This document shows positions 12,001-15,000 of a DNA stretch of 64,000 bases, piece by piece (the first letter of the stretch is position 1; each line of letters starts with the position of its first letter). A program made the position numbers. The DNA is from Thalia democratica (taxonomy: Eukaryota): positions 69,874,001 through 69,938,000 of the forward strand of contig OZ241830.1 of assembly GCA_965202585.1 (NCBI GenBank). The letters run 5' to 3'.

Positions 12001-15000
12001 AGAGTTTGCAAAAAAAAAACACTGAATAAATGAAACTAATTAATTTCAGACAAAATAGTTTAAAAAATTGAAAGACTTTTCCTCAGAGTTTGGTTTATAA
12101 ACCTATACAAGTTATATTTTACTTGAAACTTATAAAGATGCAAACTACATTGATTACTTTAGTTCATTTGAAAAACAAAACCAACACATAAAGGTTTTTT
12201 TTTATTTATGATTTTTTTTACTTAAAGAATAGTATATAGACTAAAGTATTCTAATGTTTTATAATCCAGCTAGAAGTTGAAAGCTCAACTTATGTAAAAC
12301 TATAAATTAAAAACAAAAAACACAAGTTTATCCAATACCTGAAATCAATGGACTTGTTATAATGCAGTGTAAATAAAGTGTGAACAAACAAAAGCTGTTC
12401 ACACCTGACAGCTTATCTTTAAATATTCATGACAAAAAACTGAATGTTTTATGAAGTGACTCCACTTGTCAAAGTTTGAAATCATCTTAAGTACGACAGT
12501 TAAATTTTTCTTTTAAACCCGCAACTAAAGTATTAAACAACAAAAAGTCAAGTCGCAGCTTATACAGTCACCTGCTAAGGCTGAAGATTAGCAGAAAAAA
12601 TGATTTGAGTGATAAACCGCTGCAGCTAAAATAATTGGCTTTATCAGGATTTTACATTAATTTTAACAAACCTATACAAACGGTTAATTTTTTAGCTTTA
12701 TGTTTAAAAAAATACCAAAACTTTATGACCGTTTTGTTTCAAAAAACAATTTATTGAATTTCTTATAGAATTTTATTACAAGAATTATAACATTAAAATA
12801 AAAAAAAAAAACTTATCATTGTTATAATTTTATGTTAAAAAGATTATATAAGTTTCGACTTGATTTTGATGACAGCAAAAACATGCTTTTACCGACATAC
12901 GCTATCTTGACGTAATAAAAAAAAAGATCTAACAAACTTTTATGAATATGGTTTTTTTAAATTAAATATTTGATAATAACTATCGACATCGATGAATTAA
13001 TATGCAGTTAAAAATATTTTTCACATCTTTTAAACGGCGGTCTAATAGCTATTATTGTTTATGATTTTTAAGTTGTTTTATTTTTAACTTAGTAAATCAA
13101 GTTTTTAATTGACCTAAAAACATAAAAGTTATAAATTATAACAAATTGTAGTTTTTGTATTGTTTTCAAGTCTTCTTAGTTTTAATTAGAAAAATTTTGC
13201 AGATGCTTACACGGGCCAATTAATGCCAGGACAAAAAATAAACTCAGAGCACTCAGGTTGCATTAACAGGGGAGGACACATCAGCAAGGAACCAGGAGAC
13301 TCAGCAAGATCGAACAAGAACAAGGGGAAGACGACGAGACAGAGGACGGTGCTGAACGAGAAGCAGCTGACGGTGCTGCACACCTTCTACGAGAACAACT
13401 GCAGACCCGACGCCATCATGAAGGAGCAGCTGACCACGATGACGGGACTTCCTCAAAGAGTCATCAGGGTGTGGTTCCAGAACAAGCGGTGCAAGGACAA
13501 GAAGATCGCTATGAGGCAGCAGCAGGAGCAGAAGATGAGGAACGGCGAAGGAGGAAGGCAGCAGGATTGCAGGCAACAAAAGCAGCAGGTTGGCTTGATG
13601 ATTATTTGAAAACAAAGTTGTAAGGAATGTTTTATATACTTAAAACTGTAAAATTTTATAGATATTAATTTATATTTTTTTTTGCAAAAAGATATTTTAC
13701 TCTTTACAAAACACTTAACTTGAAAAATAGTTAAACTTATTTGAAAAAAAAATATTTATCTTAAAAAATGTATTGAAAAAAATAACATTATTGTTCTTAT
13801 TGTTGAACATTATCATGATTTTTTTTTGAACTACTTAAAGACTTTTTTTTCATATACTTTAAGAAAGTTGATTAAAAGTGTAGTTCAGTATTTTGAAATG
13901 TATAAACTTGTTTTAGTAAAATCAGCCAAAATTATTTATACAAGTAATTGTACCATATAAGCGTTTTTATTTTTAATCCGAAAAACAACAGGCATATTAA
14001 ATATTCCTGCCTTACCTGCAAACCAAAGTAATGTTATATAATTTTTTTATCTACTTATTTTATATAATGTACACAACACATTGAAAGTTAATGTTTAACA
14101 ATAAATAAATTTATATTAAAACGAACTTGAACACATCTTTAAAGTACACAGTTGTTTATGGAACAATAAAAAATATTACGATTGTTTCTACTAATCAAGC
14201 AGATGTATGTTTCACTTAATTTGAGCTACATTTTTTTTAAGGAATTGATTTTCAGGTTCAGTACTTACGAATGTTTTAAAACCTTATTGACTATATAAAG
14301 TAAAACAATATTTATAGTTTAAAAATTTTTATTTTAAAATGTTGTATTAGATTTAAAATAACGACAGCTAACACTAAGTAATTGAAAATTATTTGCTTCA
14401 AAACAAAAAAAATTCTTTGTTTTGTTATAATAAACTGCGCAAATTTTTATTATGTACACAAAGATAGTAATATATTTGCTTATTTCAACATGGTTTGAAT
14501 AAAAATACTCATTTAACCTTTAAACTTTAATTTAGGAAACTATACTTCAAACTTCAAGTTCGAATTTTACAATCGTTTTAACCTATACATAATATAAAGC
14601 TGTCGTGCGCTTGTAAACGTTTATTGAAATGGTAAAAGTCAGTCAAAAATGTAACAAATTTTCACACAACTTGATGCCGACCACTGCCCTTGACAATACT
14701 CTTGCATGTTGGCGATACATTTCAAGCAATCTGCATGCCACTGATCTATTCTCAACACCTGAGTCTTATGACGTCATAACCAAATGTATTTCACAGAGAT
14801 GCACTGTTTAAGGTGGCTTTCTTTATGACACTTTTATCTTAAAATTACTGATTATCTATGATCTAATAATATTTGTGCTTAATAAACATTTTATATTAAT
14901 TACTGTAGTAGATTATAAACAGAAAAACTAAATATAAAACAAAAATAATAATTCAACTAAATACACTAAAAGTGTTTTCAATTGAGTAAATAAGCTTAAG

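What the first reader, a model, noticed from the sequence alone, without database searches (positions are those of the whole stretch)
13301..13555. Sharp 255-nt near-identical, GC3-rich tract over the homeobox
Seen: A 13301-13555 and B 52295-52041 differ at 2 of 255 nt, whereas the same exon has 9 differences in the preceding ~99 nt and 6 in the following 33 nt. 71 of the 85 codons end in G/C (84%) versus 16 of 42 (38%) in exon 4, in an AT-rich genome. Inference: recurrent arm-to-arm gene conversion with GC bias, as in palindromic amplicons, keeping DNA-binding specificity identical. Strong constraint on synonymous sites is the alternative.
Basis: partly seen in the sequence, partly recalled or inferred. 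Interest (0 to 1): 0.65.

Follow-up and report, generated by a model that had tools for sequence, protein, structure and literature searches.

The report
Near-identical GC-rich homeobox island
Two diverged, inverted copies of the Islet developmental gene share one 255-base stretch over the homeobox that is almost identical and unusually G/C-rich; it is most likely a patch copied from one copy to the other, a known kind of event, and the cause of its G/C richness stays open.

Summary
A 13301-13555 and B 52295-52041 differ at 2 of 255 nt. The same exon differs at 9 of 98 nt before the tract and 6 of 33 nt after it. GC3 is 71/85, against 16/42 in the LIM2b exon. The tract is both the least diverged and the most GC-rich 255-nt stretch of two tail-to-tail Islet paralogues whose arms are otherwise only about 88% identical, in a 26.5%-GC, tunicate-like genome.

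Protein constraint explains part of the identity: unnamed relatives carry the same homeodomain. It does not explain the lack of silent changes (1 observed, 8.9 expected; scan-corrected P=0.013). Nor does it explain the identity of 25 poorly conserved flanking codons (0/75 nt against 15/129 nt).

The best reading is a short non-allelic gene-conversion tract lying on a regional GC3-rich block (13310-13546). GC-biased conversion as the cause of the GC richness is neither shown nor excluded. For it: the block and tract boundaries coincide, and the enrichment is regional. Against it: Arg and Gly keep A-ending codons, G3 exceeds C3, other identity islands are AT-rich, and the arms are not homogenised.

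Conversion is not needed to keep DNA-binding specificity. This is a known kind of event, of moderate interest. DNA from sister species would decide it.

The parts
13301..13555 (+). Identity tract, copy A (85 codons; 2 differences from copy B)
52041..52295 (-). Identity tract, copy B
13310..13546 (+). GC3-rich block by maximum-likelihood change-point: 71 of 79 codons end in G/C, against 23 of 49 in the rest of the exon
13331..13510 (+). Homeodomain-coding part (60 codons). These limits are my numbering from the Trp-Phe-x-Asn helix-3 positions (inference). The Pfam match covers residues 45-100 of the exon translation, that is 13337-13504.
13203..13588 (+). Homeobox exon of copy A (AG acceptor before it, GT donor after it)
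52008..52393 (-). Homeobox exon of copy B
4389..4588 (+). Copy A exon with a candidate start codon and LIM1 (copy B 61411-61212, minus strand)
10507..10605 (+). Copy A LIM2a exon (copy B 55108-55010, minus strand)
10968..11095 (+).
17591..17785 (+). Copy A exon with the conserved Islet C-terminal motif, used as the internal control (copy B 47583-47389, minus strand)
18614..18766 (+). Copy A last coding exon with stop codon, matched only by tunicate Islet references (copy B 47027-46875, minus strand)
1828..20658 (+). Arm A of the inverted duplication. Its outer end is cut by the window, because its partner reaches 63999.
45088..63999 (-). Arm B of the inverted duplication. The genes lie tail to tail with a spacer of about 24.4 kb.
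25601..33117 (-). Third, decayed partial copy inside the spacer. It has a LIM1 remnant read in two frames and no homeobox, so it gives no outgroup for the tract.

Best explanation
The tract is a short non-allelic (interlocus) gene-conversion patch between two tail-to-tail Islet paralogues that have otherwise diverged by 10-12%. A break in one homeobox was repaired from the other copy about 38.5 kb away, and this overwrote roughly 13299-13555. One recent event, at about 8% of the arms' age, is enough to explain it. The patch lies on a block (13310-13546) whose third codon positions are held G/C-rich by a regional directional force. That force slows silent change, so this block kept the longest uninterrupted identity in the arms. 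It therefore remained the one place where heteroduplex could form, which would explain why the tract edges and the block edges coincide. The nature of the force is open: GC-biased repair in repeated conversions, or a force older than the duplication. Shown here: the identity island, its silent-site deficit, its extension over poorly conserved codons, and the coincident GC3 block. Inferred: the conversion event itself, its timing and its direction.
For: The tract has 2/255 differences and is the minimum of all windows, against a median of 29. It shows 1 synonymous difference against 8.9 expected from the intron-derived substitution matrix. That matrix predicts the gene-wide total well, 34.3 expected against 34 observed. 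P=0.0013, or 0.013 after scan correction. Synonymous divergence (pS) is 1/52 in the tract against 32.5/178.6 in the other exon parts (Fisher P=0.0015 on rounded counts). As an internal control, a 23-codon motif with identical amino acids has 6 synonymous differences, against 1 in the tract's 84 identical codons (counts; Fisher P=0.0003). The non-homeodomain codons inside the tract differ at 0/75 nt, against 15/129 nt in the same exon outside it, P=0.0013. Those codons vary among relatives: the first 8 tract residues match P0005 at 1 of 8 and P0006 at 2 of 8, counted by me on the alignments. GC-rich non-coding islands in the arms diverge normally (42/270 and 29/255 columns), so GC richness alone does not give identity. 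Conversion between paralogues only 82% identical overall, next to a 70-bp identical stretch, and between adjacent inverted paralogues, is documented in C. elegans (PMC3966223, passages).
Against: There is no outgroup or orthologue DNA, so the defining phylogenetic incongruence was not tested. A directional force matched to the observed GC3 already lowers the expected silent differences to 4.2-5.7, with P(<=1)=0.02-0.08, which is only marginally rejected. AT-rich intronic islands of 85-117 nt of perfect identity, and the LIM2b exon with a 116-nt run, show that constraint or small tracts produce similar islands elsewhere in the arms. The LIM2 exons also have few silent differences, 2 observed against 5.6 expected, which is not significant. 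The region after the homeodomain is partly conserved in P0005, 12 of 17 residues by my count.
Confidence: 0.55

Rival explanations
1. No conversion occurred. A regional directional pressure on silent sites, older than the duplication, holds third positions at G/C. Candidates are selection on the transcript or on the DNA of this exon block, for example purine-rich splicing or codon signals, or allelic GC-biased conversion at a local hotspot. Together with protein constraint on the homeodomain and its basic flanks, this pressure keeps the two copies alike.
For: The force needed for GC3 of 0.83-0.90 (scaled strength 2.6-3.2) cuts S-to-W silent change to 0.13-0.21 of neutral. Expected silent differences then fall from 8.9 to 4.2-5.7. 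The codon shift is family-specific: Arg and Gly are unshifted, P=0.002. It is also strand-skewed. Fourfold G3:C3 is 16:6 against 17:23. Third positions are A 11 and T 3. The sense strand is 66% purine. The other exons of the gene already have GC3 of 51% in 26.5%-GC DNA. A tunicate survey reports coding GC almost 17 points above genomic GC in the most AT-rich thaliacean (PMC13746493, passages). The homeodomain protein is identical in relatives.
Against: P(<=1 silent difference) is still only 0.02-0.08 under this model. The 75 nt of non-homeodomain codons are fully identical, although these residues vary among relatives. A conserved, partly GC3-rich motif in the next exon has 6 silent differences in 23 codons. 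The predicted RNA structure is no more stable than shuffles, z=+1.25, with 185 of 200 shuffles folding at least as well. An allelic hotspot should also raise the GC of the adjacent intron, which is AT-rich.
Confidence: 0.3
2. Recurrent arm-to-arm conversion with GC-biased mismatch repair both homogenises the homeobox and has driven its third positions from about 50% to 84-90% G/C.
For: The GC3 block (13310-13546) is nested in the identity tract (bounded by differences at 13298 and 13556) within 3 codons at each end. The enrichment is regional and not residue-linked: poorly conserved residues inside the tract have S3 of 16/22 against 82/173 outside it, P=0.04. Both remaining differences have G in A and a weak base in B, as expected for new AT-ward mutations not yet erased. 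GC-biased conversion in inverted repeats is established in primate X palindromes (PMC8981503, abstract).
Against: Arg (AGA 4, AGG 4, CGG 1) and Gly (GGA 3 of 5) are not shifted, while Lys is AAG 10/10 and Thr is ACG 6/8. G3 exceeds C3 at fourfold sites. Other identity islands have GC of 0.24-0.34. The arms as a whole are not homogenised. In a simple two-copy model the repair bias would have to be 0.93-0.96, against about 0.70 reported for primates (PMC8981503, abstract). This is an inference, because the model ignores population-level amplification of the bias. [quoted passage not shown]
Confidence: 0.25
3. Translational-accuracy selection: preferred G/C-ending codons are favoured at functionally critical residues of the DNA-binding domain. 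This is the pattern described for Drosophila homeodomains and zinc fingers (Akashi 1994, recalled and not read here).
For: Conserved residues inside the tract have S3 of 42/47. The homeodomain is the most conserved part of the protein.
Against: Outside the tract, residues identical in at least 12 of 16 references have S3 of 36/65, against 108/225 for the rest, P=0.33. This includes the LIM exons, at 17/26, 6/12 and 4/14. Inside the tract even residues identical in fewer than 4 references have 16/22. The enrichment is therefore a property of the block and not of conserved residues.
Confidence: 0.05
4. Assembly or polishing artefact: reads of one copy were used to correct the other over the most similar stretch.
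For: Nothing specific. The two copies lie in one assembled window, and no reads could be checked.
Against: The tract keeps 2 copy-specific differences. Its flanks carry dense copy-specific differences up to 13298 and from 13556. Both genes are intact, with conserved splice sites. An artefact would not create the GC3 block, which is present in both copies.
Confidence: 0.03

Closest known systems
Interlocus gene conversion between linked paralogues, restricted to the best-conserved coding segment (for example C. elegans fog-2/ftr-1, and the inverted hsp16 and hsp70 pairs; PMC3966223, passages read)
   Same: A short tract of hundreds of bases lies between nearby paralogues of only about 82-88% overall identity. 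The inverted orientation is permissive. The tract is seeded where uninterrupted identity persists.
   Different: Here the event is inferred from a single genome without orthologues. The tract lies inside one exon of a developmental transcription-factor gene and coincides with an extreme GC3 block.
Sex-chromosome palindromes with arm-to-arm, GC-biased conversion (primate X: PMC8981503, abstract read; human Y: PMC8600007, search listing only)
   Same: An inverted repeat with a spacer, intrachromosomal conversion, and elevated GC in the converting sequence.
   Different: Those arms are above 99% identical along their whole length, and there the GC excess affects non-coding DNA. Here the arms are about 88% identical, only 255 nt are homogenised, and the arm introns are at the genome's 26.5% GC.
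Raised GC3 in paralogues that undergo concerted evolution (mammalian Hsp70 and histone genes; Kudla 2004 and Galtier 2003 are recalled and were not read; PMC5865164 was seen as a search listing only)
   Same: Co-occurrence of paralogue identity, low silent divergence and high GC3.
   Different: In those cases whole coding regions are involved in GC-heterogeneous genomes. Here it is a sub-exon block, with codon-family exceptions (Arg, Gly) and a G-over-C skew.
Higher codon bias in DNA-binding domains (translational accuracy; Akashi 1994, recalled)
   Same: A homeodomain with stronger use of G/C-ending codons than the rest of its gene.
   Different: The residue-level association was tested here and not found. 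The LIM domains are not enriched.
Drosophila ladybird tandem homeobox paralogues lbe/lbl (PMC3142176, passages read)
   Same: Linked homeobox paralogues with nearly identical homeodomains (97% at the protein level).
   Different: That study found no intergenic conversion and put this down to low nucleotide similarity (53.5%). So protein identity there is held by selection alone, which shows that conversion is not needed to keep a homeodomain identical.

Membership tests
Islet-class LIM-homeodomain gene | Two N-terminal LIM domains followed by a homeodomain | tested here: met
   Pfam LIM matches three exon translations, at E=7e-15, 9.5e-06 and 4.5e-04. The last scores 20.9 bits, below the 22.9 cutoff, because it holds only half a domain. 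Pfam Homeodomain matches at E=4e-16. Each exon was searched on its own.
Islet-class LIM-homeodomain gene | Best named relatives are ISL proteins, and the Islet C-terminal motif is present | tested here: met
   The named hits of the homeobox exon are ISL-1/ISL-2/Islet proteins. Exon 5 matches the C-terminal region of 15 of 16 named Islet references. Exon 6 matches 6 of 6 tunicate and 0 of 10 non-tunicate references.
Interlocus gene-conversion tract | A segment with significantly lower divergence than its flanks at silent sites | tested here: met
   1 synonymous difference against 8.9 expected, P=0.0013; scan-corrected P=0.013.
Interlocus gene-conversion tract | Identity extends over positions under little constraint | tested here: met
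   0/75 nt differ in the non-homeodomain codons of the tract, against 15/129 nt in the rest of the exon, P=0.0013. Those residues vary in relatives.
Interlocus gene-conversion tract | Phylogenetic incongruence: paralogues group by species in the tract and by orthology in the flanks | not testable with these tools
   No eukaryotic DNA collection was open. The third copy in the window lacks the homeobox.
Interlocus gene-conversion tract | Variants shared between the two loci in a population | not testable with these tools
   Only a single assembled sequence is available.
GC-biased gene conversion footprint | GC enrichment coincides with the converted tract | tested here: met
   The GC3 change-points 13310 and 13546 lie inside the identity tract 13299-13555. 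The tract is the GC maximum of the window in both arms.
GC-biased gene conversion footprint | The enrichment is blind to strand and to codon family | tested here: not met
   Arg+Gly have 7 W3 of 14, against 7 of 66 in the other families, P=0.002 (core only, P=0.014). Fourfold G3:C3 is 16:6 in the tract against 17:23 in the other exons, P=0.03. The samples are small.
GC-biased gene conversion footprint | An excess of weak-to-strong substitutions, polarised with an outgroup | not testable with these tools
   There is no outgroup sequence for the homeobox.
Palindromic amplicon with arm-wide concerted evolution | Arm-to-arm identity above about 99% along the arms | tested here: not met
   1911 of 15,354 aligned columns differ (12.4%). 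Ungapped non-coding divergence is 10.2%.
Palindromic amplicon with arm-wide concerted evolution | A large inverted repeat around a spacer | tested here: met
   The arms are 1828-20658 and 63999-45088, with a spacer of about 24.4 kb.
Translational-accuracy codon bias | Preferred codons are associated with conserved residues across the gene | tested here: not met
   Outside the tract S3 is 36/65 at conserved residues against 108/225 at the rest, P=0.33.
Synonymous constraint from RNA structure or a known RNA family | A fold more stable than shuffled controls, or a match to a curated family | tested here: not met
   z=+1.25. Rfam gives no hit at gathering score in the window. At E<=1 it gives only two sub-threshold chance-level hits in 13000-13900.

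The most novel reading that the evidence does not exclude
A self-sustaining conversion island. Two developmental paralogues have drifted 10-12% apart, and repeated GC-biased exchange survives only in the homeobox. There it has pushed third positions from about 50% to about 90% G/C against a 2.8-fold AT-ward mutation bias. That would make this locus a natural gauge of the strength of biased gene conversion in an extremely AT-rich, probably thaliacean, tunicate genome. The one tunicate survey read here left the causes of coding GC content open.
Probability: 0.25. Interest if true: 0.55.

Novelty: new member of a known kind. Interest (0 to 1): 0.36.

Why it matters
If the tract is a conversion patch, silent-site dating of these Islet paralogues from the homeobox would be wrong by more than ten-fold. 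The locus would also show how conversion can persist in one conserved block after the rest of a duplicate has diverged.

If the GC3 block proves to be caused by biased conversion, it gives a clean within-gene measure of that force in a genome with 26.5% GC. If the block instead predates the duplication, it points to an unexplained regional pressure on silent sites of a homeobox exon. Either outcome bears on why coding GC lies so far above genomic GC in AT-rich tunicates, a question left open in PMC13746493 (passages read).

It does not change what is known of Islet function. The homeodomain protein is held constant by selection in any case.

Tried and rejected
1. I looked for a third homeobox copy to use as outgroup. 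tblastn of the exon translation against the window finds only A and B. The decayed copy C lacks the exon.

2. An all-site run-length permutation in the style of GENECONV gives 156 nt observed against a largest permuted run of 121. I rejected it as evidence on its own, because protein constraint confounds it. AT-rich introns also show runs of 85-117 nt.

3. RNA structure: z=+1.25, no support.

4. Known RNA families: none at gathering score, and only two sub-threshold chance-level hits. No tRNA was found.

5. Overlapping reading frames: the +2 frame (118 aa) and the antisense frame (112 aa) stay open across the tract, but neither matches a Pfam family. Open frames are expected where G/C-ending codons leave few stop triplets. 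This is inconclusive as a test of dual coding.

6. Translational accuracy: there is no residue-level association.

7. CpG effects: the window's CpG observed/expected ratio is 0.97 and the tract's is 0.81, so there is no depletion to explain.

8. Naming the organism from the neighbouring Kelch-repeat gene: all 43 hits are unnamed records, and I did not trace them.

9. Literature. One search for gene conversion + homeobox + paralogs + GC3 returned 1 paper, on Caenorhabditis and not relevant. A search for salp/homeobox/Islet/tunicate listed nothing about an Islet duplication among the 10 of 276 papers shown; I saw listings only.

10. First slip: one search failed on a frame error and was corrected.
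Full report
**What is in the window**

The window is uniformly AT-rich: 22.6-31.8% GC in 2-kb bins and 26.5% in aligned non-coding DNA. It has no N.

It holds a large inverted duplication. Arm A (1828-20658, + strand) pairs with arm B (63999-45088, - strand) in collinear pieces of 74-89% identity. Over 15,354 aligned columns, 1911 (12.4%) differ. Ungapped non-coding divergence is 1437 of 14,105 sites (10.2%).

Each arm carries an intact Islet-class LIM-homeobox gene:
- two LIM domains spread over three exons and a homeodomain exon (Pfam, each exon searched alone);
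- named best hits that are ISL/Islet proteins;
- a fifth exon with the Islet C-terminal motif and a sixth, last exon.

Both copies read through without stops and keep their splice sites. The genes lie tail to tail around a spacer of about 24.4 kb. The two homeoboxes are about 38.5 kb apart.

The spacer holds two further features. One is a third, decayed partial copy (33117-25601, - strand), with a LIM1 remnant in two frames and no homeobox. The other is an intronless Kelch-repeat ORF with GC3 of 28%.

Exon 6 is matched by 6 of 6 tunicate Islet references and 0 of 10 non-tunicate ones, and the tunicates give the highest summed scores. A tunicate survey gives 25.3% and 28.0% genomic GC for two thaliaceans, Thalia democratica and Pegea sp. 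For T. democratica it reports coding GC almost 17 points above the genomic value (PMC13746493, passages). A thaliacean origin is therefore a lead and not a result.

I searched the gene model exon by exon. I did not build, translate or search a joined coding sequence or protein.

- A 13301-13555 and B 52295-52041 differ at 2 of 255 nt. 13351 G/T is synonymous, and 13508 G/A changes Ala to Thr.
- The same exon has 9 differences in the 98 nt before the tract and 6 in the 33 nt after it.
- GC3 is 71/85 in A and 70/85 in B. It is 16/42 in the LIM2b exon and 152/298 (51%) over all other complete codons.
- The tract is the least diverged 255-column window of the arms: 2 differing columns, against a median of 29 and a next-lowest of 8.
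- It is also the most GC-rich 255-nt stretch of the whole window in both arms (0.565 and 0.557).

**Is it more than protein constraint?**

Much of the raw contrast is protein constraint. The 60 residues from Gly41 to Lys100 of the exon translation are identical in the unnamed relative P0006 (60/60). They differ once in P0005 (59/60). The flanks of both relatives differ strongly. The fair test is therefore on silent sites.

- Synonymous divergence (pS, Nei-Gojobori counts) is 1/52 in the tract against 32.5/178.6 in the other exon parts. On rounded counts, Fisher P=0.0015.
- A neutral expectation built from the intron substitution matrix predicts 34.3 synonymous differences for the whole gene, and 34 are observed. 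For the tract it predicts 8.9, and 1 is observed (P=0.0013).
- Scanning every 85-codon window of the 383 codons gives a corrected P of 0.013.
- A within-gene control points the same way. The 23-codon C-terminal motif is identical in protein between A and B, yet has 6 synonymous differences. The tract's 84 identical codons have 1 (counts; Fisher P=0.0003).
- Identity also covers the 25 tract codons outside the homeodomain: 0 of 75 nt differ, against 15 of 129 nt in the rest of the exon (P=0.0013). By my count on the alignments, the first 8 tract residues match P0005 at 1 of 8 and P0006 at 2 of 8. The 17 residues after the homeodomain match P0005 at 12 of 17, with two indels.

**The GC3 block**

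A maximum-likelihood change-point places the G/C-ending block at 13310-13546. There, 71 of 79 codons end in G/C, against 23 of 49 in the rest of the exon. The block lies inside the identity tract (13299-13555) within 3 codons at each end. It extends 7 codons before and 12 codons after the homeodomain as I number it.

Amino-acid content does not explain the block. With the codon choices of the other exons, 37.3 of the tract's 80 degenerate codons would end in G/C; 66 do.

The enrichment belongs to the region, not to conserved residues:
- Outside the tract, residues identical in at least 12 of 16 references have S3 of 36/65, against 108/225 for the rest (P=0.33).
- Inside the tract, even residues identical in fewer than 4 references have 16/22, against 82/173 outside (P=0.04).

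**Can one force explain both features?**

The introns are at compositional equilibrium. Strong-to-weak change is 2.77 times weak-to-strong change, which predicts 26.5% GC. Holding GC3 at 0.83-0.90 against that bias needs a scaled force of 2.6-3.2. This holds whether the force is selection or biased conversion.

Such a force cuts strong-to-weak silent change to 0.13-0.21 of the neutral rate. It lowers the expected silent differences to 4.2-5.7, so P(<=1) is 0.02-0.08. A directional force thus accounts for much of the silent identity but not comfortably for all of it. It does not account for the identical non-homeodomain codons.

**Is biased conversion the force?**

For:
- The block and tract boundaries coincide, and the enrichment is regional.
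- In both remaining differences A has G and B has a weak base.

Against:
- The shift is uneven across codon families. Lys is AAG 10/10, Thr is ACG 6/8 and Leu is CTG 4/5. Arg stays at AGA 4, AGG 4 and CGG 1, and Gly at GGA 3 of 5. Arg+Gly against the other families gives P=0.002, or 0.014 for the block core.
- Fourfold G3:C3 is 16:6, against 17:23 in the other exons (P=0.03). Third positions are A 11 and T 3. Blind repair bias should be symmetric between strands.
- The other identity islands of the arms are not GC-rich, with GC of 0.24-0.34. They are intronic runs at 9327-9443 (117 nt), 14747-14851 (105 nt) and 5576-5660 (85 nt), and the run at 10991-11106 (116 nt) over the LIM2b exon.
- GC-rich non-coding islands diverge normally, at 42/270 and 29/255 columns.
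- In a simple two-copy model the repair bias would need to be 0.93-0.96. About 0.70 was inferred for primate X palindromes, where the bias explained only a fraction of the excess GC (PMC8981503, abstract). This comparison is an inference, because the model ignores population-level amplification.
- The other Islet exons already sit at 51% GC3, so a general coding pressure exists in this genome.

All these samples are small. None of them is decisive.

**Other readings**

- RNA structure is not supported: z=+1.25.
- No RNA family is found.
- Two alternative frames stay open across the tract, but they match no protein family.
- An artefact is unlikely. The tract keeps 2 copy-specific differences, its flanks are densely copy-specific, and the GC3 block is present in both copies.

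**Most likely mechanism**

A double-strand break in one homeobox was repaired from the inverted paralogue, overwriting about 255 nt. The tract's divergence is 0.077 of the non-coding divergence, so one event at about 8% of the arms' age suffices.

The patch sits where a directional force on third positions has kept the longest uninterrupted identity. That would confine heteroduplex to the block and explain the shared edges.

Shown: the island, the silent deficit, its reach over weakly conserved codons, and the coincident block. Inferred: the event itself, its date, and the cause of the GC3 block.

Conversion between paralogues of 82% overall identity next to a 70-bp identical stretch, and between adjacent inverted paralogues, is documented in C. 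elegans (PMC3966223, passages).

**Comparison with known systems**

This works like ordinary interlocus gene conversion confined to a conserved domain. It is not a member of the palindromic-amplicon class, because arm-wide identity was tested and not met.

The pairing of paralogue identity with high GC3 is known from Hsp70 and histone genes (recalled, not read). Drosophila lbe/lbl show that a near-identical homeodomain can be held without any intergenic conversion (PMC3142176, passages).

**What stayed unchecked**

- No DNA of relatives could be examined.
- Homeobox GC3 in single-copy orthologues, tract-against-flank trees, polarised substitutions and shared polymorphism therefore remain untested.
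- Supplementary Table S9 of PMC13746493 (per-species GC1-3) could not be seen.
- The unnamed relatives were not traced.

Noticed in passing
window 7075-7305 (+), 58485-58714 (-), 29985-30220 (-): A GC-rich (about 47%) non-coding element of roughly 220 nt in intron 1 is kept in all three Islet copies. The decayed copy C is 90.7% identical to A and to B here, against 72-79% in its other segments. The alignment shows several TGACGT-type half-palindromes, a CRE-like motif name that I recalled. There is no Rfam hit. It is a candidate conserved enhancer or an undescribed RNA.
   Followed up: partly
window 25601-33117 (-): A third, collinear but heavily shortened Islet copy lies in the spacer, in the same orientation as copy B. 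Its LIM1 exon remnant is split over two frames, and no LIM2, homeobox or C-terminal exon was found. It is probably a pseudogene from an older duplication or a faster-decaying one.
   Followed up: partly
window 9327-9443, 14747-14851, 5512-5761 (arm A; partners in arm B): AT-rich intronic islands of arm-to-arm identity occur amid 10-12% divergence. They are perfect runs of 117 and 105 nt, and a 255-nt window (5516-5770) with 8 differences. All exceed the permutation 95th percentile of 79 nt. They are either conserved non-coding elements or small conversion tracts without GC enrichment.
   Followed up: partly
window 41007-42014 (-): An intronless Kelch-repeat ORF of 335-337 codons has GC3 of 28%. 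It belongs to a large family whose 43 database relatives (31-75% identity) are all unnamed records. Its GC3 contrasts with 51% in the Islet exons and 84% in the tract.
   Followed up: partly
window 2434-2688 (+) and 63121-63375 (-): A GC-rich (about 50%) non-coding island lies near the outer ends of both arms. It diverges faster than average, at 42 of 270 columns. Its nature is unknown; it may be a repeat.
   Followed up: no
window 17591-17785 and 18614-18763 against 47583-47389 and 47027-46878: The two C-terminal exons show more synonymous differences than the intron-based expectation: 11 against 5.6 and 8 against 5.0. Their pN is about 0.10. Outside the conserved motif, constraint on the C-terminal halves of the paralogues appears relaxed.
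   Followed up: no
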